From: a virus
Taxonomy: Duplodnaviria > Caudoviricetes
IMG/VR virus record: IMGVR_UViG_3300032330_001719
Location: 1 to 54,364 of that record
Direction: 5' to 3' (one strand)
Length of the DNA stretch: 54,364 nt
The number at the start of each line of letters is the position of its first letter. Position 1 is the stretch's first letter. The translations under genes were made by a program, and so were the position numbers. This document shows positions 428 through 6,914 of this stretch, one piece after another. The notes beneath the pieces were generated by a model. The model worked only from the letters and a program-made list of their open reading frames with translations. It did no database searches and was not told the DNA's origin.

Positions 428-901
428 ATGGATAATAGTCAAAAATCTAGTGTAATAGCATATCAACGATTATTCCCTGAGGAGAAAGTGTATAAATGGG
501 AAAGTAAGATTAGTAAAGATTTTATTTTATTCAAAGTTAAAGGATTTACTGATTTTTACAAAGACATTACGGTTCGTGTTGAGATTATTGACTATCGTTA
601 TAATGATATTAGCAAGAGAATGGTTGATGGGTCAACAATGGTGATGTTCAAACAAAGAATGAAAATCCCATTAAGAATTGATTTTTCAATTTGTTCGATT
701 AATAACTTTGATATTTTAGTGATTAATGATAGTAAATTTATTATACCGGAGAAACGAAAGTCGTCTAAACCGGAATTTAAGATTTACACCGGAAGAACGG
801 GATTTGACACTTTAAGAGAATCTTCGTATCTTTTTAATGACGATAGGGATGATGATATAATGTCTTATACGAGATTGTTAGGAACAAACAGATTTAGATA
901 A
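428..901 (+). CDS. hypothetical protein
   Basis: ORF 368..901; ATG 428 (MDNSQK) just after the previous stop is the likelier start. Confidence 0.65.
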   Translation: MDNSQKSSVIAYQRLFPEEKVYKWESKISKDFILFKVKGFTDFYKDITVRVEIIDYRYNDISKRMVDGSTMVMFKQRMKIPLRIDFSICSINNFDILVINDSKFIIPEKRKSSKPEFKIYTGRTGFDTLRESSYLFNDDRDDDIMSYTRLLGTNRFR

Positions 902-904
902 AAA

Positions 905-1000
905 CTACTTGAGTAAGCGGGAGTGGTCAATCAACAACCCGAAGAAGGTTCAGGTAAATCAATATGACACGGGATGGCCGAGCCCATATAGGTAAGTAGG
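905..1000 (+). ncRNA. unknown structured RNA candidate
   Basis: GC-richer non-coding tract; CTACTT/AAGTAG closing stem, GTCA/TGAC inner stem, AACC-CGAAGAA-GGTT hairpin. Confidence 0.3.
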
Positions 1001-1051
1001 AAGTTAGTGTTTTTTAGGAGGATTGAATCAGTTTTTAACATTAACGAAAAT

Positions 1052-1125
1052 AGTCAGGTGGCGGAATTGGTAGACGCAATCTGTGTAGTGGGCTAAAGTT
1101 ACAGGTTCGAATCCTGTTCTGACTA
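1052..1125 (+). ncRNA. tRNA-Leu-like scaffold element 1 (no pairable anticodon arm)
   Basis: Acceptor AGTCAGG/TCTGACT-A, Leu-type D arm GCGGAATTGGTAGACGC, T arm ACAGG-TTCGAAT-CCTGT; the central 23 nt form no anticodon stem. Confidence 0.7.
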
Positions 1126-1135
1126 CTTAGCAAGG

Positions 1136-1268
1136 TGTAAACGATAAGGAAAATTCGTCACAGGTTTACATTAAGTTGCAGACGAACCGAAATGCTTACG
1201 GTTAACAGGGCTTAACTCATAAAGTCCAGAGAGCATAATCTAACGAGTGACAGATTGGAAAGACAATC
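1136..1268 (+). ncRNA. unknown structured RNA with a potential double pseudoknot
   Basis: Hairpins TGTAAAC/GTTTACA, AACCG/CGGTT, GGGCTT/AAGTCC and GATTG/CAATC; loop ATGCTT can pair with GAGCAT and loop ACTC with GAGT. Confidence 0.4.
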
Positions 1269-1274
1269 AAATTT

Positions 1275-1376
1275 AGTCAGGAGACCATTGGTTGGTGGCA
1301 CCTCCCCAAGGTTGAGTAACGATAAGGTCGACTCTTTATGGCAAAGCTGAAGCGGGTTCGAATCCTGTCCTGACTA
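1275..1376 (+). ncRNA. tRNA-like scaffold element 2
   Basis: Acceptor AGTCAGG/CCTGACT-A, T arm GCGGG-TTCGAAT-CCTGT, divergent D arm ACCA-TTGGT-TGGT, multi-hairpin centre. Confidence 0.65.
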
Positions 1377-1434
1377 CTCTAATTAAACTAGTTTATGAAC
1401 AGTCTTTGAGGTGAGATGCTCTCGTTAGAACGGA

Positions 1435-1623
1435 AGTCAGGTGGCGGAATTGGAAGACGCTAATGGAGATATAGTCAAATCAGCGAGATAACACGGACAA
1501 GTGGCTCTATGTCGTGAGGGGAATTGCAAACCCTCGGTGGATTATCTAAACCAAGTGGCTATGGGTGAATAGGTGTACAACTATGAACTCTAAATCGTAC
1601 AGGTTCGAATCCTGTCCTGACTA
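1435..1623 (+). ncRNA. tRNA-Leu-like scaffold element 3 with a 138-nt insert
   Basis: AGTCAGG-TG-GCGGAATTGGAAGACGC, insert 1461-1598, then ACAGGTTCGAATCCTGT-CCTGACT-A. Confidence 0.7.
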
Positions 1624-1701
1624 CAAATGTTCCATAGTGGTAATTACGGGTCCGTCCCCTTGCCTGGAAATATACACTGAACAAATTAAGGGGGACAACA
1701 G

Positions 1702-1815
1702 AGTCAGGTGGCGGAATGGTAAACGCTCACAGGTTGGTATTGTAAAAGAGGAATTGACCCCCATCTCCACGATTTTAGTGGTTATACCTTACAGGTTCGA
1801 ATCCTGTCCTGACTA
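1702..1815 (+). ncRNA. tRNA-Leu-like scaffold element 4 with a 64-nt insert
   Basis: AGTCAGG-TG-GCGGAATGGTAAACGC, insert 1727-1790, then ACAGGTTCGAATCCTGT-CCTGACT-A. Confidence 0.7.
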
Positions 1816-1837
1816 CAAACATTAAATTATAAAAATT

Positions 1838-1993
1838 ATGGCAGTATTATTAGTACAATTAGGGTTAATGGGGTTAAACATATACTCGGCAAAATCTATG
1901 GAGAGACAAAGTAGAAATCCGGGATTCCAATATTTCGTAGCGGGATTATGTTGTATGGGAGCTATTCACGAATTAATTAAATTACTTGTGTAA
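1838..1993 (+). CDS. small membrane protein (51 aa, not in the ORF track)
   Basis: MAVLLVQLGLMGLNIYSAKSMERQSRNPGFQYFVAGLCCMGAIHELIKLLV; two hydrophobic segments; TAATG overlap with the next gene. Confidence 0.65.
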   Translation: MAVLLVQLGLMGLNIYSAKSMERQSRNPGFQYFVAGLCCMGAIHELIKLLV

Positions 1994-2499
1994 TGAAGAA
2001 GGTATTATTATCCATATCGTTATTATTGGCGTTAAACACGTCCTATTCACAAAATAGAAAAGTTGTTATTGATAAATGTATCAATAAATCTGAGATTTAC
2101 GGACCAACCGGAATTGTTTGTTCTAATCTGAATAAAACCAAATGGTTTACAATGACTCCGGTATATCGATTAGATGGTAATAGATTGTCTTGTGATGGGT
2201 TATGGGTGATTAGAATGGATATTGGTAATTTAAGTAAAGAAGACCAAATATTCATAACATTTGCTGACGGTAATAAATTACGTTTGGAATCCGGAATTGA
2301 ATTGACTTCAGACAAATCAATATATTTCAAATTATCTGATTTGGAATTTACACTTTTGAAAAGTAAGGAAATTCAATCTGCCCGATATATAAATGGAAAT
2401 GATTTTTGTTCATTCCAATATAATATGACCGGTGATGAAAAAACGTATTTCACAAATTTATTCACCAATTATTATATCCGAGATGTATATTGTGATTAA
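1993..2499 (+). CDS. exported hypothetical protein with a Sec signal peptide
   Basis: MKKVLLSISLLLALNTSYS-Q, a Bacteroidota-style signal peptide followed by Gln. Confidence 0.75.
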   Translation: MKKVLLSISLLLALNTSYSQNRKVVIDKCINKSEIYGPTGIVCSNLNKTKWFTMTPVYRLDGNRLSCDGLWVIRMDIGNLSKEDQIFITFADGNKLRLESGIELTSDKSIYFKLSDLEFTLLKSKEIQSARYINGNDFCSFQYNMTGDEKTYFTNLFTNYYIRDVYCD

Positions 2500-2521
2500 A
2501 TAAAAAAAAAGTAAAAAAAAG

Positions 2522-2553
2522 TTTGACAGATAAAAATAAATGTCTTATCTTTG
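2522..2553 (+). promoter_or_regulatory. Bacteroidota-type promoter driving the ncRNA cluster
   Basis: TTTG(ACA), 20 nt spacer, TATCTTTG; A-tract upstream. Confidence 0.8.
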
Positions 2554-2589
2554 TACAAGAATTAAAGTTCTTAAAAATATTGAAAAATA

Positions 2590-2675
2590 GGTGAGTGTTG
2601 TGTCGACGGTTAAATTCCTGTCCTTGTGTATCTTGATGAAAAGCAAGTAGCTCAGTGTTAGAGCATACACTCACT
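2590..2675 (+). ncRNA. circularly permuted tRNA-like RNA (YrlA-like topology)
   Basis: Terminal stem GTGAGTGT/ACACTCAC enclosing, in order, variable GTGTC, T arm GACGG..CTGTC, loop-closed acceptor-like stem CTTGT/GCAAG, D arm TA-GCTC-AGTGTTA-GAGC. Confidence 0.55.
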
Positions 2676-2685
2676 AAAATATAAT

Positions 2686-2776
2686 GGTATTGTAGCTCAG
2701 TGGGAGATTCGTCTTCCTTGGTAGAGCAGGAGTAACGAAAGACTCTGTGCCGTAGGTTCGAACCCTGCCGATACCA
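2686..2776 (+). tRNA. atypical tRNA-Phe(GAA)-like with a D-loop hairpin insertion and an 8-nt anticodon loop
   Basis: Acceptor GGTATTG/CGATACC-A; GCTC/GAGC D stem with GGGAGA-TTCG-TCTTCC inserted; anticodon stem GGAGT/ACTCT, loop AACGAAAG; T arm GTAGG-TTCGAAC-CCTGC. Confidence 0.65.
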
Positions 2777-2781
2777 CAAAA

Positions 2782-2915
2782 GTAAACCATAATTTGGTGG
2801 GGGATGGAACTACGAATTTATTTGTAGTAAAGTTTCGTCGGGTGAGAGACCCGGATGGATAGAAGGTAGACAAGTAATCCTACACACGCCCACAGATTCC
2901 TTCTCTAGGGTTTAC
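2782..2915 (+). ncRNA. unknown pseudoknotted RNA
   Basis: GTAAACC/GGTTTAC closing stem, GTGGG/CCCAC, GATGGAAC/GTTTCGTC, CGGGT/ACCCG, crossing pair AGAAGG/CCTTCT. Confidence 0.45.
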
Positions 2916-2916
2916 A

Positions 2917-2994
2917 TTATTAGTTAATAGGGTTAATCAGGCGTAAATGGTTAACATAAAACAGGAGTGAGGCTCAACACCTAAAAACTAATAA
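2917..2994 (+). ncRNA. three-way-junction RNA candidate
   Basis: TTATTAGTT/AACTAATAA stem enclosing GTTAATCA/TGGTTAAC and AGG(AG)TG/CACCT hairpins. Confidence 0.3.
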
Positions 2995-3012
2995 AAAAAA
3001 ATTAAAAAAAAG

Positions 3013-3044
3013 TTTGACAATTCAAATAAGTTTACTTACCTTTG
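3013..3044 (+). promoter_or_regulatory. Bacteroidota-type promoter
   Basis: TTTG(ACA), 20 nt spacer, TACCTTTG. Confidence 0.75.
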
Positions 3045-3051
3045 TCAAACA

Positions 3052-3108
3052 TTTGAGAAACAGGTTGACCGGAGTCGTAAAACGTTGTATAGTTTCCCTC
3101 TTCTCAAA
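3052..3108 (+). ncRNA. small RNA candidate with its own promoter
   Basis: TTTGAGAA/TTCTCAAA stem starting just after the predicted start site; no ORF. Confidence 0.35.
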
Positions 3109-3137
3109 AAAAAAATAAAAAAAAGTTACACAAAGTG

Positions 3138-3168
3138 CTTGACAAATGAAAAAAATCACTTATCTTTG
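3138..3168 (+). promoter_or_regulatory. Bacteroidota-type promoter of the large ncRNA
   Basis: CTTG(ACA), 19 nt spacer, TATCTTTG. Confidence 0.75.
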
Positions 3169-3199
3169 TATAACAATTGAGGAAAACCTCAAAACGTTC

Positions 3200-4055
3200 T
3201 TAGAAATTTTAGATTATCCTTTACCCACTTAGGTGGTGTAAAAAAAAGATAATGGGTGGTATATCATCCTTAAATAAACCGGGAAACCGGGATAAAGTGG
3301 AATCATTAGTGTTATTGGTTCTGCGGCTTCTGAAAGGGAGCTCGAGTATACAAGTCGGATATCACCTGACCTTCAGTATTGAGGGCAACGCTTTAGAGAA
3401 AGTGGTTGGGTGACCGGGCGATGTGGGTCGTCAGGTTGAGGTGGGAACACCAATAAGAATAACCGATAGGAATCAAGTAAGAAATAGGGTCATCCAACCT
3501 TATAATTACGGGTTCCAATATCAGAGGGGACTTAAAACCGAAAGGTAAGTTAGAGAACGAGTGGTGTCGCTACTAACCTTACGAAACATCTACCAAGATG
3601 TCAGTTTGAAGTAATCTTAAAATATGAGAGTGGGGACACTCTACCGAGTAGGTTGGTATTTCTTCGTCCAAAAGATGATGAAGCCTAAGACAGACCTCTA
3701 CTTGGACACATCCACAACACGTTAACTATTTTCAATATGGTGAAAAACTAAACAGAAAAGAGCAAAAGTGTCTGTCAGGTATCGTCGACAAGTTGCCTAC
3801 ATAGTAACGAGCCGTTCGTTGCACAGGATGACCGCAAGTCTGAATGTATTCTCGCCAAAAACCTCTACGGAGTCGAATCCGGAGTCAGTTCGCAAGATTG
3901 AAGAGAGTTGAATAATGAGAGAGTAGATGATATCTCAAGGAGTGATTGGTCTAACCAATCGGCAATGAGGATTACCATTCAAAAGATGGTGGAAAAGAAG
4001 CGAAAAAATAATGCTTCCGAAGATTCTCAATAAGACGAGTATTCTCATCGTATTA
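3200..4055 (+). ncRNA. large structured ncRNA, GOLLD-like
   Basis: ~850 nt ORF-free, GC-enriched tract between a promoter and a terminator; many GNRA-capped hairpins (CCGG-GAAA-CCGG, GGTG-GGAA-CACC, ACC-GAAA-GGT, GAGTG-GGGA-CACTC); next to tRNAs; 3' part resembles the GOLLD 3' domain from memory. Confidence 0.65.
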
Positions 4056-4059
4056 AGCC

Positions 4060-4093
4060 AAAAAGGTGTTACAGAAATGTGACACCTTTTTTT
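4060..4093. terminator. bidirectional intrinsic terminator
   Basis: AAAAAGGTGTTACA-GAAA-TGTGACACCTTTTTTT between convergent units. Confidence 0.85.
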
Positions 4094-4095
4094 GT

Positions 4096-4770
4096 TTATA
4101 ATATTTTATTTGATTTTTTTAAATTGTCTTCCGCCCATAGTGGTTGAAGATTTGAGTAATGACAAAGTTTAAAAACTTCTTCTTCTGTTTTTGCTGATGA
4201 CAATGGTATAATGTGGTCAATATGAATATGTTTACCCATTAAATCCCAAGTCATTCCTTCGGTAAATTGTTTTTCAAGGTGTTCTTTAAGAAATTCCTGA
4301 TTACATCCAACAATTTCAAATGTTTTATTATTTTTTGATATATTCTTTAATTTTAAAAAAGTGGATATTCTACTCCTAATATTCGAAGTTAAACTATAAA
4401 ATGGGTCAAAATTCCTTCTTTTCTTTTTATACTCTGAATTATATTTGAGTATTTTTTTTAAATTTTTATCACGATAATTTTTATTAGATATCACTAATTT
4501 TTCCTTATTTTGTTCTTTATATTTTTTATGGTAATTAGATACTTCTTCAGGGTTAGATTGTTTCCGATTCTTATAATATTCATTTCTTTTATCTGTATTT
4601 TTCTTATTATAATTTTTATGATACTCTAATACGTGTTCTCGATTATTTAATCTCCACTCTTTTTTACAATTTTTACATTGAGGATGATACCCATCCTTTC
4701 TACTTGAGTTCTTACTAAACTCACAAACTTCTTTTTCTTCCTTACACTTACTACAAACTTTTTTTTCCAT
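4096..4770 (-). CDS. HNH endonuclease (free-standing homing type) with an N-terminal CxxC..CxxC zinc ribbon
   Basis: CSKC...CKNC; C-terminal HIDHIIPLS...HYSNLQPLWAEDNLKKSNK. Confidence 0.85.
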   Translation of the reverse strand: MEKKVCSKCKEEKEVCEFSKNSSRKDGYHPQCKNCKKEWRLNNREHVLEYHKNYNKKNTDKRNEYYKNRKQSNPEEVSNYHKKYKEQNKEKLVISNKNYRDKNLKKILKYNSEYKKKRRNFDPFYSLTSNIRSRISTFLKLKNISKNNKTFEIVGCNQEFLKEHLEKQFTEGMTWDLMGKHIHIDHIIPLSSAKTEEEVFKLCHYSNLQPLWAEDNLKKSNKIL

Positions 4771-4903
4771 AATGTTCTTTCAATAATGTTTCAATCAGAC
4801 GAGATTTGTTAATCATCTCATCTTCCATTTTTTTGTAAATTACCGGGTCAACACAGATTCCAAATTTTACTTTTTTATCTTCTTCTTTTTTTCTTGGGTT
4901 CAT
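4751..4903 (-). CDS. small ribbon-helix-helix-like DNA-binding protein (50 aa, not in the ORF track)
   Basis: MNPRKKEEDKKVKFGICVDPVIYKKMEDEMINKSRLIETLLKEHYGKKSL; overlaps the HNH start; TATTTATA upstream (4917-4924). Confidence 0.6.
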   Translation of the reverse strand: MNPRKKEEDKKVKFGICVDPVIYKKMEDEMINKSRLIETLLKEHYGKKSL

Positions 4904-4968
4904 AATATCTATTTATTATAAATATCTCAAAAAGTATAAAAAGTCATAATTATTAGAAAAAAAATCAT

Positions 4969-4976
4969 TATCTTTG
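4969..4976 (+). promoter_or_regulatory. -7 promoter element for smpB (probably a leaderless mRNA)
   Basis: TATCTTTG ending 5 nt before ATG 4981. Confidence 0.65.
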
Positions 4977-4980
4977 TCGT

Positions 4981-5418
4981 ATGAAAAAATCAATTAACAT
5001 AGTCAATAAGAAAGCCAAGTTTGAATATTCATTCTTGGAAACTTTAATTGTGGGAATCCAACTAGTTGGTTCAGAGGTGAAGTCCATTCGTCAGGGGAAG
5101 GTCTCCATATCTGAGGGGTATTGTTATTTTAATAATGGTGAGTTGTTTATAAAAGGTATGAACATCTCCGATTATGGTTATGGTTCATTCCACGAGACCG
5201 TTAAGGATAGAAAACTATTAGCTAAGAGAAAAGAACTGAATAAGTTGGAAAGTGAGTTAATCAACGGGACAACCATCATTCCTTATCGTGTCTTCATAAA
5301 TGACACCGGATTGGTTAAGATGGAGATTGCTCTTGCCAAAGGTAAAAAACTCCACGATAAACGAGATAGTATAAAATCTCGGGATATTGATAGAGATATG
5401 AAAAGGGACTTGAAGTAA
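4981..5418 (+). CDS. smpB: SsrA-binding protein SmpB
   Basis: NKKAKFEY..GIQLVGSEVKSIRQGK..RKLLAKRKE..LAKGKKLHDKRDSIK motifs. Confidence 0.97.
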   Translation: MKKSINIVNKKAKFEYSFLETLIVGIQLVGSEVKSIRQGKVSISEGYCYFNNGELFIKGMNISDYGYGSFHETVKDRKLLAKRKELNKLESELINGTTIIPYRVFINDTGLVKMEIALAKGKKLHDKRDSIKSRDIDRDMKRDLK

Positions 5419-5461
5419 TTTTTTTTTAATTTTAATATATTTATAATAAAAAACTAATAAT

Positions 5462-5980
5462 ATGAAAAATTTGTTAAATAACATTTCTCAAGAAGAGAAA
5501 AATAGAATCCTTGAGATGCACTCATTCAAGAAAAAAGTAATTACTGAAGAATTTGAAGACAAATTTGCTTTGGCTATGGTTTTCTTAGGTGGGTTAGCAC
5601 CATTTATGAGATATTTTGGGGGTAAATTAGGTGATTTTATAATTCATTCAAGTTTAACACATCACGATAAAAAAGCGTTCAAAAAATTATTCACAGAAAT
5701 TGAATCTAATCCGGATGACTTTAAGTTAACATATGAAAAATCAGAAGGTCAAATTAATATGTTAATTGAATCTAATGGTGATATAGAACTTGACCATTAC
5801 AACAATATTGAATTACCAATTTCTTTTAGTATAAATGATAATGGTGGTGTTGAGGTAACATATGTGTCTACTGATGGGGAACAAAAAGAAATTTCGTTTA
5901 ATATGGGCGAAAAAGCGTATCATCGTGTTGAACAACTTATTGAAAAATTTGGTGAAGAAATGTCTGATGACGAAAAATAA
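5462..5980 (+). CDS. putative head-packaged protein with an EEKNRILEMH propeptide
   Basis: N-terminal ISQEEKNRILEMH...ITEE shared with 32014 and 33372; TATTTATA at 5438-5445. Confidence 0.65.
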   Translation: MKNLLNNISQEEKNRILEMHSFKKKVITEEFEDKFALAMVFLGGLAPFMRYFGGKLGDFIIHSSLTHHDKKAFKKLFTEIESNPDDFKLTYEKSEGQINMLIESNGDIELDHYNNIELPISFSINDNGGVEVTYVSTDGEQKEISFNMGEKAYHRVEQLIEKFGEEMSDDEK

Positions 5981-6004
5981 AATAATAAAAACTAATACAA
6001 TATT

Positions 6005-6032
6005 AAAGGGACTTGAAATAGTCCCTTTTTTT
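6005..6032 (+). terminator. intrinsic terminator
   Basis: AAAGGGAC-TTGAAATA-GTCCCTTTTTTT. Confidence 0.8.
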
Positions 6033-6082
6033 ATTATACTTAATTATCAGTTCAAATAAACAAATTAAAAAACACAAAAATT

Positions 6083-6418
6083 ATGATTATAGGAATTTTT
6101 TTAGGTATGGTTATGGTTCTCGGGATACTGGGAATTATAGTTATGGTTAGGATGTATTCAGACATCAAAAAATTGAAAAGATTGGTTAAATCTCAAGAAG
6201 AAGTAATTAGAGAGACTGACCATAGTATTCATCGTCGTATTGATGGTGAAATTGAAAGAACAAATAAATTATACGAAGACCTTAGTAGATATATCACTTC
6301 TAGAATGGAAGACACTTCAAGAAATTTTGGTGAGGTATATCAACAAATGGATTCAAGATTAGATAAATTAGCAAATAAATTAAGTAAACCTGTTAAAAAG
6401 GATTTACTACAAGATTAA
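6083..6418 (+). CDS. membrane-anchored coiled-coil protein
   Basis: N-terminal hydrophobic helix followed by a heptad-like charged region. Confidence 0.7.
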   Translation: MIIGIFLGMVMVLGILGIIVMVRMYSDIKKLKRLVKSQEEVIRETDHSIHRRIDGEIERTNKLYEDLSRYITSRMEDTSRNFGEVYQQMDSRLDKLANKLSKPVKKDLLQD

Positions 6419-6440
6419 AAAATAAACTTTGAACTGATAA

Positions 6441-6473
6441 CAAAAAACCCATCGTAATGATGGGTTTTTGTTT
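6441..6473. terminator. bidirectional terminator
   Basis: AAAAAACCCATC-GTAAT-GATGGGTTTTTG between the 6083 gene and the tmRNA 3' end. Confidence 0.8.
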
Positions 6474-6869
6474 TGGTGGAAGTGCGGGGACTCGAACCCC
6501 GGTGTTACTTGTATTACCTATTAAGGACTACACGTTTAGGTCATTGTTTAAGCTAACAATCCGAAATTTCACAATTCCCTTATTTTTAGAGTGGTTCGGT
6601 TTACTGAGAACTAATCCTCCACTTGTACCTTTTCGGATAGGTACCACACCTTTGTAGGGACTTCTGTTGCAAGGTTATATGTCCACCGACCCCGTGTTGT
6701 GTTTCCGCTTAGGCTACTACAACTTCCTCAGCACGGATTAAACCGATAGCTGACATTTTGTCTAAAACGTTTCCGTTTACTTTTCGTATTCCGTAGATTT
6801 AAGTGATAGGAAACTTCTCACTACGTGCCCCGAATAACCATTACCAATAGTCAATTCCGTGTCACTCCC
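6474..6869 (-). ncRNA. ssrA: tmRNA (SsrA), tag (A)GNVLDKMSAIGLIRAEEVVVA
   Basis: 5' GGGAGTGACACGGAATTGAC; 3' CGGGGTTCGAGTCCCCG-CACTTCC-ACCA with G3.U70 and encoded CCA; tag ORF 6774-6709 after AAAAGTAAAC; smpB nearby. Confidence 0.93.
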
Positions 6870-6883
6870 ATATTTTGATACCA

Positions 6884-6914
6884 CAAAGATAATATATAAA
6901 TTGGAAAAACCAAA
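6884..6914 (-). promoter_or_regulatory. Bacteroidota-type promoter of tmRNA
   Basis: Minus strand TTTG (6914-6911), 19 nt spacer, TATCTTTG (6891-6884). Confidence 0.8.

What the first reader, a model, noticed from the sequence alone, without database searches (positions are those of the whole stretch)
1052..1815. Array of four tRNA-Leu scaffolds carrying variable RNA cargo instead of an anticodon arm
Seen: elements 1052-1125, 1275-1376, 1435-1623 and 1702-1815 share the acceptor stem AGTCAGG/(C/T)CTGACT, discriminator A and a T arm with GGTTCGAATCCTGT. Three also share the Leu-type D arm GCGGAATTGGTAGACGC (or a close variant) with A15 and U48. The segment between D and T arms differs completely (23, ~55, 138 and 64 nt), has no canonical anticodon stem-loop, and in the longer copies folds into its own hairpins. 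Known: RNase P, the CCA-adding enzyme and EF-Tu read the acceptor/T arm, and bacterial LeuRS relies on A73 and the core fold rather than the anticodon. Inference: a conserved frame with variable contents argues for selection rather than decay. The phage may use a tRNA chassis to process and stabilise different RNA cargos, a natural version of the tRNA-scaffold trick. Possible roles are anticodon-less decoys for host anticodon nucleases, LeuRS/EF-Tu sinks, or processing punctuation that releases the RNAs lying between the elements. This is my best candidate for an undescribed system.
Basis: partly seen in the sequence, partly recalled or inferred. Interest (0 to 1): 0.9.

Follow-up and report, generated by a model that had tools for sequence, protein, structure and literature searches.

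The report
Phage tRNA-like scaffolds with swappable inserts
Four tRNA-shaped genes in this phage keep the top half of a leucine tRNA, have an unrelated RNA segment where the anticodon arm should be, and belong to a large family of such elements in uncultured freshwater phages.

Summary
The four elements share the frame AGTCAGG / Leu-type D arm / GGTTCGAATCCTGT / YCTGACT-A and differ completely in between.

They are not local oddities.

When members were found by the D arm alone, 93 of 104 had a 7/7-paired acceptor stem. All seven acceptor pairs covary. An anticodon arm is missing: 3 of 98 have one at the canonical place and 9 of 287 have one anywhere.

The inserts are hyperdiverse (287 inserts fall into 229 similarity clusters), fold somewhat better than shuffles, and show compensatory changes. 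They are swapped: one orthologous site carries 7 insert types in 12 phages, and near-identical elements sit in unrelated flanks.

The elements lie on the coding strand between genes or beside tRNAs, at 1-8 copies per genome.

Best reading: non-decoding tRNA-Leu derivatives, cut from polycistronic RNA by RNase P and RNase Z, that display exchangeable RNA domains. Processing, leucylation and the role of the insert are inferred, not shown. The main rival is that only the frame matters, as a processing signal.

The parts
1052..1125 (+). F1: tRNA-Leu-like frame with a 23-nt insert (74 nt). 3' acceptor strand is TCTGACT (G7-U66 wobble), discriminator A.
   Evidence: Rfam tRNA 40.6 bits. ARAGORN calls it 'Tyr GTA', with a weak anticodon stem.
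1275..1376 (+). F2: same acceptor stem and T arm, a variant D arm (ACC/GGU), and a 3-hairpin insert. This insert family is also present in L042, L115, L012 and L250.
   Evidence: Two compensatory pairs in 4 sequences.
1435..1623 (+). F3: frame with a 138-nt insert. No relative of this insert was found.
1702..1815 (+). F4: frame with a 64-nt insert. An ATG ORF starts 22 nt downstream (1838).
   Evidence: Rfam tRNA 40.3 bits with large skipped stretches.
900..1051 (+). U: conserved leader module lying directly 5' of a frame. In three phages the frame that follows it carries three different inserts.
   Evidence: RNA-library contig depth is 150-200 in runs X15 and X17.
1126..1274 (+). S: conserved inter-frame module ending in a hairpin with a GAAAGA loop. 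In L115 it precedes a tRNA-like scaffold with a different acceptor stem.
1377..1434 (+). 58-nt spacer/leader between F2 and F3. It is conserved (91-93%) in L023, L167 and L191, each time between unrelated inserts.
1624..1701 (+). 78-nt spacer between F3 and F4.
   Evidence: An RNA-library contig of a relative covers 1599-1726.
803..835 (+). Near-consensus promoter-like site (TTGACA-17-TATCTT) about 70 nt upstream of U. It is a possible start of the array's transcript.
   Evidence: This is a consensus match only. The stricter pattern search lists no site on the + strand between 149 and 2522.
1838..2499 (+). Two small ORFs (51 and 168 aa) directly downstream of F4 on the same strand. No family match was found for either.
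2686..2776 (+). Fifth tRNA-like element with another acceptor stem (GGTATTG/CGATACC), a 20-nt insert in the D loop and an 8-nt anticodon loop.
   Evidence: The region 2647-2780 is 88% identical in L042.

Best explanation
The four elements are members of a large family of phage-encoded, non-decoding RNAs derived from a class II tRNA-Leu.

Each member keeps the parts that make the tRNA 'top half' and elbow: a 7-bp acceptor stem, U8, a host-type Leu D arm with G18G19, U48, the T arm and discriminator A73. The anticodon arm is gone. The region between the D arm and the T arm is a 20-140 nt domain that differs in almost every family member.

The elements lie on the coding strand, between genes or among tRNA genes. 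They are therefore transcribed within longer RNAs.

Inferred: RNase P and RNase Z cut them out, which both divides the polycistronic RNA and releases a stable L-shaped RNA that carries the variable domain. The retained features are also those that bacterial LeuRS uses, so leucylation is plausible.

I read the variable domain as a selected, exchangeable RNA module. The two conserved halves (26 and 30 nt) act as homology arms, through which inserts are swapped between phages and arrays grow and shrink.

Shown here: the family, the structure, the lack of an anticodon arm, the genomic context and the swapping. Inferred: processing, stability, charging, and that the insert is the working part.
For: Spread:
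- Only 18 stretches were found in 185,579 species genomes. All are MAG contigs, and 9 of the 18 carry Bacteroidota labels.

Structure:
- Members were found by the D arm alone, and the 3' half was taken at the first T-loop motif with no pairing filter. Acceptor pairing was 7/7 in 93 of 104 and 6/7 in 5. The T stem was 5/5 in 100 of 104.
- Of 36 members with other acceptor sequences, 31 pair 7/7 with their own partner, against 10% with shuffled partners.
- The count of structure pairs: 98.7% of cells paired, all 7 acceptor pairs and 3 of 5 T pairs changed on both sides, 0 of 500 shuffles reached any measure, and slid controls gave 26-46% paired.
- The D stem covaries: GCG/CGC 103, GTG/CAC 11, GCA/TGC 5, GCT/AGC 4.

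No anticodon arm:
- 3 of 98 have one at the canonical place, and 2 of those 3 are true tRNA-Leu(UAA).
- 9 of 287 have one anywhere, against 4.8 expected from shuffles.
- ARAGORN of 138, with scattered anticodons.

Leu origin:
- Host tRNA-Leu(CAA) genes in 3 of 3 checked MAGs have the identical D arm.
- 216 of 401 Bacteroidota genomes match, and nearly all listed matches cover query positions 3-35.

Insert under constraint:
- Mean folding z-score is -0.76 +/- 0.07 (n=216). 37.5% of inserts fall below -1 and 2.8% above +1.
- Compensatory changes occur in insert helices.
- One insert family is carried in an AGTCAGG frame (L053) and in a GGTCGGT frame (L012).

Exchange:
- 12 contigs share flanks that are 86-96% identical but carry 7 unrelated inserts.
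- By my count from the listing, 17 of 116 homologous-insert pairs are at least 97% identical while both 200-nt flanks are at background identity of 0.65 or less. In the 11 pairs shown, homology starts at A1 and ends at A73-C, except one pair that also shares its downstream flank.
- The close relative L042 (SmpB 96.5% identical at the amino-acid level) lacks F1's insert, S, F3 and F4.

Context:
- The nearest tRNA is on the same strand in 85 of 85 cases. No locus has frames on both strands.
- 61 of 183 frames have an ATG ORF starting within 60 nt downstream, with a peak at 13-23 nt.
- There are 1-8 copies per genome, dispersed, with gaps of 6-20 nt to neighbouring ORFs.
- Position -1 is T in 158 of 200.

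RNA:
- Contigs of 4 metatranscriptome runs contain frames joined over other inserts. Depth over the frames is 40-200, against 0-6 over the neighbouring ORFs.
Against: - No end mapping exists. Contigs cannot show 5' or 3' ends, and DNA can be present in RNA libraries.
- Depth over the frames sums all family members in the sample, so it is not a measure of this locus.
- No motif is shared among inserts: the best 6-mer occurs in 18 of 229 clusters.
- No relative was found for the inserts of F1, F3 or F4, so for three of the four window elements the insert's constraint is untested.
- Some members have very short inserts (elements of 54-72 nt). Whatever the frame does therefore does not need a large insert.
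- The single window elements do not fold better than shuffles (z from -0.1 to -1.6).
- No constant protein partner lies within about 5 kb: the commonest ORF family occurs in 15 of 121 loci.
- Identical inserts in different contexts could also arise from neutral recombination.
Confidence: 0.45

Rival explanations
1. Frame-only 'punctuation' element. The tRNA-like frame is the selected part. It serves as an RNase P / RNase Z cleavage signal and/or a structured 5' end that separates and stabilises cistrons in polycistronic phage RNA, like t-elements in plant mitochondria. The region that no processing enzyme reads is free to drift, grow and be replaced, so the inserts are filler.
For: - The elements sit between co-oriented ORFs, with 6-10 nt upstream and 15-20 nt downstream and no room for a promoter or terminator.
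- 61 of 183 lie directly upstream of an ORF start, with a peak at 13-23 nt.
- Copies are dispersed, 1-8 per genome.
- Inserts are hyperdiverse with no shared motif, and some are very short.
- Exactly the parts that RNase P and RNase Z read are conserved.
- In the window, no Bacteroidetes-type promoter or + strand terminator was listed between 149 and 2522, so array and ORFs may form one transcript.
Against: - Phage genomes here are tightly packed, yet the median element is 102-112 nt and inserts reach 140 nt.
- Inserts fold better than shuffles and keep helices through compensatory changes.
- One insert family is conserved across two different frames.
- Tandem arrays of 4-6 frames with only short non-coding spacers (window; L012) punctuate no ORFs.
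- The host-identical Leu D arm and A73 are more than processing needs.
Confidence: 0.3
2. Aminoacylation-dependent mimic or decoy. The RNAs are charged with leucine or bind tRNA-reading host proteins. They would act as a sink for LeuRS or EF-Tu, as a leucine donor outside translation, or as uncleavable competitors for tRNA-targeting defence nucleases.
For: - The D arm is identical to host tRNA-Leu.
- A73 is present in 83 of 98, and U8, G18G19 and U48 are kept.
- Bacterial LeuRS does not read the anticodon (recalled knowledge, not tested here).
Against: - Nothing here tests charging or binding.
- A decoy or sink does not need a hypervariable insert.
- The acceptor stem differs from the host tRNA-Leu in its first three pairs, and 36 of 104 members have other acceptor sequences.
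- No LeuRS, transferase or other constant partner lies in the flanks.
Confidence: 0.12
3. No RNA function. The elements are decaying tRNA-Leu pseudogenes, or selfish or incidental repeats that persist because they serve as recombination linkers between phage genome modules.
For: - Frames lie at homology breakpoints. Several pairs share only one flank, for example 0.98 identity upstream and 0.59 downstream.
- Arrays differ by indels between close relatives.
- GIY-YIG endonuclease-like ORF families occur in 10 and 9 of 121 loci.
Against: - Complete compensatory covariation in the acceptor, D and T stems shows selection on RNA pairing, not only on DNA identity.
- All copies are co-oriented with transcription.
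- Family members are present in RNA libraries.
Confidence: 0.06
4. They are working tRNAs after all. Either the insert is an intron that is spliced out, or they are decoders with an unusual anticodon arm.
For: - ARAGORN of 138, and F1 and F4 pass the Rfam tRNA threshold.
- A few members look like real tRNA-Leu(UAA), for example L183 and L207. The 90-nt L114 type has a loop reading UAA on an extended stem.
Against: - No flanking halves of an anticodon stem are present: 3 of 98 at the canonical place and 9 of 287 anywhere, against 4.8 expected.
- No Rfam intron or ribozyme family matches in the window array or in 7 other loci.
- The anticodons that ARAGORN calls are scattered over many amino acids.
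Confidence: 0.03

Closest known systems
Class II tRNA-Leu of the Bacteroidota host, and canonical tRNA-Leu genes of the same phages
   Same: The D arm is identical (TGGCGGAATTGGTAGACGC). The last four acceptor pairs (CAGG), A73 and the T-loop consensus are shared.
   Different: The first three acceptor pairs differ (AGU against GCC). There is no anticodon arm. The anticodon and variable-arm region is replaced by 20-140 nt of unrelated sequence.
Phage T4 species 1 RNA (rnaC), a small stable RNA in the T4 tRNA cluster
   Same: It is a phage-encoded, non-decoding RNA of 139 nt lying beside tRNA genes. It has a tRNA-type T arm (CCGGGTTCGAATCCCGG) near its 3' end, paired ends and long inserted hairpins. 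Its function is still unknown (passages of PMC9697503). The window phage is T4-like (Gp20, Gp23).
   Different: There is no sequence relation beyond the T loop. rnaC has no Leu-type D arm and no 7-bp canonical acceptor stem in the predicted fold. It is not known as a multi-copy family with variable inserts.
tmRNA (tRNA-like domain plus a large insert)
   Same: An acceptor stem and T arm close a large non-tRNA insert. A tmRNA and SmpB are encoded 3-5 kb away in the window.
   Different: tmRNA has a reduced D arm, a G3-U70 alanine identity, pseudoknots and a tag reading frame (recalled). The frames have a full D arm and Leu-type features. I did not look for a tag frame in the inserts, and Rfam tmRNA does not match them.
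tRNA-like processing signals: plant mitochondrial t-elements, and the mascRNA of MALAT1
   Same: These are tRNA-shaped elements inside longer transcripts that RNase P and RNase Z cut to define RNA ends (recalled). The intercistronic position here fits that pattern.
   Different: Those are eukaryotic or organellar. They are not multi-copy families with a host-identical D arm and hypervariable inserts. Cleavage has not been tested here.
Engineered 'tRNA scaffold' for expressing recombinant RNA; also the tRNA-like/miRNA units of murine gammaherpesvirus 68
   Same: In both, a tRNA body is used to process and stabilise a foreign RNA placed in or beside it (recalled).
   Different: One is a laboratory design and the other an animal virus that uses RNA polymerase III. 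Here the elements are natural and bacterial, and the insert replaces the whole anticodon arm.
YrlA / bacterial Y RNA-like
   Same: It is a non-coding RNA with a tRNA-like module. A weak match lies at 2578-2689 in the same RNA island (E 0.24, 21.5 bits against a cut-off of 69).
   Different: In YrlA the tRNA-like module is permuted and closed by a Ro-binding stem (recalled). The frames have normal tRNA order and do not match the model.

Membership tests
Canonical tRNA (Rfam RF00005) | 7-bp acceptor stem, T arm with a TTCRA loop, and a discriminator base | tested here: met
   Met in all four window elements. Family-wide pairing is 98.7% with covariation.
Canonical tRNA (Rfam RF00005) | Anticodon arm: 5-bp stem and 7-nt loop after position 26 | tested here: not met
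   F2-F4 have none. F1 has only a stem with one mismatch and three G-U pairs. Family-wide, 3 of 98 have one at the canonical place and 9 of 287 have one anywhere, against 4.8 expected.
Canonical tRNA (Rfam RF00005) | Score at or above the Rfam gathering threshold (29 bits) | tested here: inconclusive
   F1 scores 40.6 and F4 scores 40.3 bits, both through local alignments that skip the insert. F2 and F3 have no hit even at E up to 10.
tRNA-Leu identity set (bacterial LeuRS substrate) | A73, a Leu-type D loop with G18G19, and A15-U48 | tested here: met
   These sequence features are present in F1, F3 and F4, and the D arm is identical to host tRNA-Leu(CAA). That these are the identity elements is recalled knowledge.
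tRNA-Leu identity set (bacterial LeuRS substrate) | Actual leucylation | not testable with these tools
   Needs an in vitro or in vivo charging assay.
tRNA gene with a group I intron | Intron of about 200 nt or more in the anticodon loop, flanked by intact stem halves, with a ribozyme core | tested here: not met
   Inserts are 23-138 nt. No Rfam intron or ribozyme match at E up to 10. No flanking stem halves.
tmRNA | Match to the tmRNA model, covering the tRNA-like domain, tag reading frame and pseudoknots | tested here: not met
   Rfam tmRNA matches 6474-6869 but not the frames. ARAGORN's tmRNA search finds none at the frames.
Transposable repeat (MITE- or SINE-like) | Near-identical copies within a genome, target-site duplication, and empty sites in relatives | tested here: inconclusive
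   Copies within one genome carry different inserts. The aligned flanks of 11 pairs show no obvious direct repeat. The empty-site test failed: 1 of 79 relatives has the element, but the upstream gene also differs.
CRISPR-like repeat-spacer array | Fixed-length direct repeats and spacers of uniform length | tested here: not met
   The conserved parts form one tRNA fold in two halves, and inserts range from 20 to 140 nt. 87 of 128 loci hold a single copy.
tRNA-like processing signal (t-element type) | Position inside a longer transcript at cistron borders | tested here: met
   family-wide. for the window.
tRNA-like processing signal (t-element type) | Cleavage by RNase P and RNase Z at the element's ends | not testable with these tools
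   Only contigs of RNA libraries were available, and they show no ends.

The most novel reading that the evidence does not exclude
Uncultured freshwater phages, apparently of Bacteroidota, maintain a natural 'RNA display' system. It would be a population-wide library of hundreds of different structured RNA modules. Each is mounted on one leucylatable tRNA chassis that provides processing and stability, and modules are exchanged between phages by recombination through the chassis halves. The modules would act on the host, for example as aptamers, decoys or sponges against defence or RNA-handling proteins, and their turnover would reflect an arms race.
Probability: 0.2. Interest if true: 0.95.

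Novelty: new variant of a known kind. Interest (0 to 1): 0.8.

Why it matters
Non-decoding tRNA-like RNAs in phages have been known since the T4 species 1 RNA, and their function is still unknown.

This family supplies a large comparative data set for that question:
- hundreds of members with one well-defined frame;
- clear covariation in the frame;
- a defined site where the insert varies;
- natural swap experiments at orthologous loci.

If the inserts are functional, this is a new way for viruses to carry and trade small RNA tools. It would also be a natural precedent for the engineered tRNA scaffold.

If only the frame matters, it is the first bacterial-virus case I could find of tRNA-like punctuation of mRNAs used genome-wide.

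Either result bears on how the RNA islands of large phages (tRNAs, tmRNA, GOLLD) are expressed.

Annotation pipelines currently call these elements as random tRNAs or miss them. ARAGORN of 138, and Rfam hits 2 of the 4 in the window.

Tried and rejected
Literature. Eight full-text searches found no description of a conserved tRNA-Leu frame with variable inserts in phages:
- GOLLD + tRNA-like;
- phage / tRNA-like / anticodon arm / insertion;
- phage tRNA-like noncoding RNA / tRNA cluster;
- GOLLD alone;
- '224 candidate structured RNAs';
- tRNA-like / phage-encoded / decoy;
- T4 stable RNA / rnaC;
- structured RNAs / phage / tRNA-like / covariation.

I read passages of 10.1101/2024.12.08.627333, PMC5737381, PMC9697503 and PMC10690425. 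I read the abstract and one section of PMC13096335. PMC10690425 reports 8,495 candidate structured RNAs from IMG/VR, five of them tRNA-like. Its supplements were not seen and may list this family.

Constant protein partner. ORFs of 121 loci were clustered. The commonest family (DUF932) occurs in 15 loci. Terminase, GIY-YIG, T5orf172 and phosphoesterase families occur in fewer. PHROG scans of ORFs next to frames gave an RNA ligase at one site and otherwise nothing consistent.

Link to GOLLD. GOLLD was detected in 3 of 247 family loci and in 0 of 7 loci scanned with Rfam. The link was rejected.

Link to one phage lineage. Gp23 was found in 19 of 47 long contigs, and in 5 of 17 records that are at least 90% complete. 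The family is therefore not confined to T4-like phages.

Host origin of the inserts. In 401 Bacteroidota genomes, the listed matches fall on the frame only, apart from one weak hit in S. 127 further matches were not listed.

Deposited phage genomes. The 3.2-kb query found only GOLLD in two huge-phage records. F4 found only partial T-arm hits to ordinary tRNAs, in 38 records at E 0.3.

Shared insert motif. None was found.

Thermodynamic stability of the single window elements. Not significant.

Empty-site test. It was inconclusive: 1 of 79 relatives has the element, and the upstream gene is not conserved.

Variable-arm position of the main insert helix. The evidence is only suggestive. Helices of at least 6 bp ending 1-4 nt before the T stem number 93 against 59.9 expected, of 221 inserts.

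RNA libraries. Some bins of the array have little or no contig cover in some runs. Contigs give no starts or ends, so I draw nothing from holes.

No earlier findings were used.
Full report
THE OBSERVATION

The window holds four elements on the + strand: 1052-1125, 1275-1376, 1435-1623 and 1702-1815. All begin with AGTCAGG and end with GGTTCGAATCCTGT(C/T)CTGACTA. Three also share TGGCGGAAT(T)GG(T/A)A(G/A)ACGC after the acceptor strand.

The 14-nt T-arm word occurs four times exactly. With up to 2 mismatches, 0.28 matches are expected by chance, and 0 of 100 shuffles reached the observed count.

The stretch between the D arm and the T stem is 23, 138 and 64 nt in F1, F3 and F4. The inserts share nothing with each other.

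- Rfam's tRNA model reaches its threshold for F1 (40.6 bits) and F4 (40.3 bits) only by skipping the middle. It does not match F2 or F3.
- ARAGORN calls only F1, as 'tRNA-Tyr GTA'. The supposed anticodon stem has a mismatch and three G-U pairs.
- F2 has its own D-arm equivalent, which a relative keeps through an A-U to C-G change.

WHAT THE WINDOW IS

The window is a 54-kb IMG/VR virus record, rated about 18% complete. It encodes a T4-type portal, a major capsid protein and a terminase. It also encodes SmpB and a ClpB-like ATPase.

Positions 900-6900 form an island of RNA genes:
- the four frames with their conserved leader and spacer modules;
- a weak YrlA-like match at 2578-2689;
- a fifth odd tRNA-like element at 2686-2776;
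- GOLLD at 3644-4051 (298.8 bits);
- a tmRNA at 6474-6869 on the minus strand.

Promoter-like sites of the TTTG...TAnnTTTG type lie at 119-149, 2522-2553 and 3013-3044 on the + strand. The consensus is recalled from memory; the matches come. A near-consensus site lies at 803-835. No terminator-like site was listed on the + strand between 1 and 2600.

The array is therefore probably transcribed together with the two small ORFs that follow F4 (1838-2499).

A LARGE FAMILY

- A search for a 20-nt D-arm word that leaves the acceptor stem and T arm free also hit the limit. It added 109 new loci.
- The same 3' half occurs in only 18 stretches of one-genome-per-species bacterial and archaeal assemblies. 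All are MAG contigs, and 9 are labelled Bacteroidota.
- It does not occur as a whole element in 50,697 deposited phage genomes.
- Runs that hold the window's DNA are freshwater or lake metagenomes from 15 studies.
- Element lengths run from 54 to about 260 nt, with a median of 102-112.
- Of 47 long contigs that carry the frame, 19 encode a Gp23-type capsid protein. Among records at least 90% complete the figure is 5 of 17. The family therefore crosses phage lineages.
- Of 24 genome records searched, 22 held 1-8 copies, and the copies were often far apart.

THE FRAME IS AN RNA STRUCTURE

To avoid circularity I took the 108 unique hits of the D-arm word and located the first T-loop motif downstream. 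I then read the stems off by position, with no pairing filter.

- The acceptor stem was 7/7 paired in 93 of 104 and 6/7 in 5.
- The T stem was 5/5 paired in 100 of 104.
- Thirty-six members have 5' strands other than AGTCAGG, such as TCCCTTG, GACAAGG, CGAGATA and GCGGATG. Thirty-one of these pair 7/7 with their own 3' strand, against 10% with shuffled partners.
- On the alignment of 94 such elements, 98.7% of cells are paired. All seven acceptor pairs and three T pairs change on both sides. No shuffle of 500 reaches any measure. Sliding the partner gives 26-46% pairing.
- In the other sample, the D stem covaries: GCG/CGC 103, GTG/CAC 11, GCA/TGC 5, GCT/AGC 4.
- The D arm is letter-for-letter that of host tRNA-Leu(CAA) in three of three MAGs checked. 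In 401 Bacteroidota genomes the listed matches fall almost only on positions 3-35 of F1. This shows that the host tRNA-Leu also shares the last four acceptor pairs.
- The discriminator is A in 83 of 98.

The frame is thus a tRNA-Leu derivative with its first three acceptor pairs changed.

THE ANTICODON ARM IS MISSING

- A 5-bp stem with a 7-nt loop at the canonical place occurs in 3 of 98 members. The distribution of pair counts equals that of shuffled inserts, and two of the three are real tRNA-Leu(UAA) genes.
- An anticodon-arm-like hairpin anywhere in the insert occurs in 9 of 287, against 4.8 expected.
- ARAGORN of 138, with anticodons for many amino acids and some of 2 or 4 letters.
- By contrast, 168 of 231 other tRNA-shaped candidates in the same loci are ordinary tRNAs by ARAGORN.

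THE INSERTS

The 287 inserts fall into 229 similarity clusters, 192 of them singletons. No k-mer is common among them. Yet they are not random:
- Their mean folding z-score against dinucleotide shuffles is -0.76 +/- 0.07 (n=216).
- Insert families with several members keep their helices through compensatory changes.
- One insert family is carried both by an AGTCAGG frame (L053) and by a GGTCGGT frame with another T stem (L012). Aligning the two listed sequences by eye, I count several double changes in its helices.
- A helix ending 1-4 nt before the T stem, where a class II variable arm would sit, is enriched: 93 against 59.9 expected, of 221. This hints that the insert is an overgrown variable arm plus a linker.
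- Some members also carry inserts in the D loop.

For F1, F3 and F4 of the window, no relatives of the insert were found. Their inserts remain untested.

EXCHANGE

At one locus, 12 contigs share flanks that are 86-96% identical. They carry seven unrelated inserts in the same frame, and one contig has a second frame in tandem.

Conversely, among 116 pairs with homologous inserts, I count 17 that are at least 97% identical while both 200-nt flanks are at background identity. In the pairs shown, homology starts at A1 and ends at A73-C, apart from one pair that also shares downstream sequence. In several pairs the outer frame differs while the insert is identical. This is what crossing-over inside the conserved halves would give. 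Other pairs share only one flank.

The window's close relative L042 has SmpB at 96.5% and the upstream ORF at 95% amino-acid identity. In L042, the U module runs straight into F2, and the insert of F1, S, F3, F4 and the two ORFs are absent.

The leader modules are conserved in other phages next to frames that carry different inserts:
- U in L042 and L055;
- S in L115, in front of a scaffold with another acceptor stem;
- the 58-nt spacer in L023, L167 and L191.

CONTEXT AND EXPRESSION

- In 128 loci, every frame is on the same strand as its nearest tRNA (85 of 85). No locus has frames on both strands. Forty-two loci also hold ordinary tRNAs and four hold a tmRNA.
- 61 of 183 frames have an ATG ORF of at least 50 aa starting within 60 nt downstream, with a peak at 13-23 nt. 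The figure for random positions is 18%, without such a peak.
- Maps of two complete genomes show the pattern gene, 6-10 nt, frame, 15-20 nt, gene.
- Position -1 is T in 158 of 200. The base after A73 is C in 194 of 200, but the listed ordinary tRNA-Leu and tRNA-Tyr genes of these phages also mostly end in ..AC.
- Contigs of four metatranscriptome runs cover the frames at summed depths of 40-200, against 0-6 over the neighbouring ORFs. They include joints in which the 5' and 3' halves enclose other inserts, which are other family members.

That is consistent with expression. It does not show ends, and the depth is pooled over the family.

INTERPRETATION

The parts that are kept are those that give the tRNA elbow and top half. 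By established knowledge (recalled, not tested here), these are what RNase P, RNase Z, the CCA-adding enzyme and bacterial LeuRS read. The part that is lost is the part needed for decoding.

Given the intercistronic, co-oriented position, cleavage out of longer transcripts is the most likely first step.

I put 0.45 on the reading that the released L-shaped RNA carries a selected, exchangeable domain. I put 0.30 on the frame-only punctuation reading. The rest is spread over charging-dependent mimicry, non-functional repeats and unusual working tRNAs.

The evidence that separates the first two readings is modest. For a functional insert: insert folding, compensatory changes, one insert in two frames, and the size of inserts in compact genomes. 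For filler: hyperdiversity, very short members, and no shared motif.

COMPARISON WITH KNOWN SYSTEMS

The nearest relative in kind is T4 species 1 RNA (rnaC), a 139-nt stable RNA in the T4 tRNA cluster. It has a tRNA-type T arm and long inserted hairpins, and its function is still called unknown.

tmRNA, YrlA, organellar t-elements, mascRNA, the gammaherpesvirus tRNA-like units and the engineered tRNA scaffold share single features.

None of these is a multi-copy family with one frame and hundreds of inserts. My eight literature searches found no description of one. A large catalogue of candidate viral RNAs (PMC10690425, passages) may contain members in supplements that I could not read.

I rate this as a new variant of a known kind (viral tRNA-like non-coding RNA), well supported as a family, with its function open.

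Noticed in passing
window 3644-4051 (+), with upstream part from about 3150-3250: GOLLD RNA (RF02032, 298.8 bits), followed by a terminator-like hairpin at 4060-4091. Contigs of four metatranscriptome runs cover 3250-4000 at summed depths up to about 39,000. Homologues are found in the huge-phage records LR756502.1 and LR745206.1, beside odd tRNA-like calls.
   Followed up: partly
window 6474-6869 (-) and 4981-5418 (+): The phage encodes both a tmRNA (73 bits) and SmpB (161.5 bits), so it carries its own trans-translation pair. A promoter-like site at 6884-6914 (-) lies directly upstream of the tmRNA.
   Followed up: no
window 2578-2776 (+): A weak YrlA / Y RNA-like match lies at 2578-2689 (21.5 bits, E 0.24), with the T arm placed before the D arm. 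It abuts a tRNA-like element at 2686-2776 that has a 20-nt hairpin inserted in the D loop and an 8-nt anticodon loop. The stretch 2647-2780 is 88% identical in L042.
   Followed up: partly
window 900-1051 and 1126-1274 (+): Two conserved non-coding modules (U and S) always lie directly 5' of a tRNA-like scaffold in other phages (L042, L055, L115). S ends in a hairpin with a GAAAGA loop. That loop motif occurs in the 60 nt upstream of 21 of 200 frames, and the stem varies with compensation in the examples I read. U has high depth in RNA-library contigs.
   Followed up: partly
L014 7997-8152 (-), L039 2259-2426 (-), L052 585-760 (-), L091 836-992 (+): This is another scaffolded family of 156-176 nt. 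The acceptor stems covary (TGTCAGG/CCTGACA against TGTAGAG/CTCTACA), the discriminator is G, and there is a conserved insert that no Rfam family matched in the two loci scanned (L014, L039).
   Followed up: no
L071, second element of the 218-nt stretch shown: This looks like a chimera. The D arm and anticodon arm match an ordinary phage tRNA (loop CTTATAC, anticodon TAT), seen with acceptor GCTCTCG in L012 and L096. Here they are joined to an AGTCAGG-type acceptor stem. This fits recombination inside the shared T arm.
   Followed up: no
window 4096-4770 (-): This ORF matches endonuclease VII-type PHROG families (phrog_1035, 1.3e-18). It lies between GOLLD and SmpB and is absent from the close relative L042. 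It is probably a mobile endonuclease gene.
   Followed up: no
window 2933-3039 (+): One metatranscriptome run (X16) shows summed contig depth of about 3,980 in this bin, far above its neighbours. The stretch 2780-3110 is non-coding and unassigned.
   Followed up: no
L026, L054, L068, L105, L167 (elements listed): Some family members carry a second insertion inside the D loop, between GGAA(T) and GGTAGACGC, in addition to the main insert.
   Followed up: no
L262 2501-3634 (= G033): In one complete 197-kb phage genome a frame sits 17 nt upstream of an RNA ligase gene (phrog_968, 4.8e-62). None of the 78 other relatives of that gene has a tRNA-like element within 450 nt upstream.
   Followed up: partly
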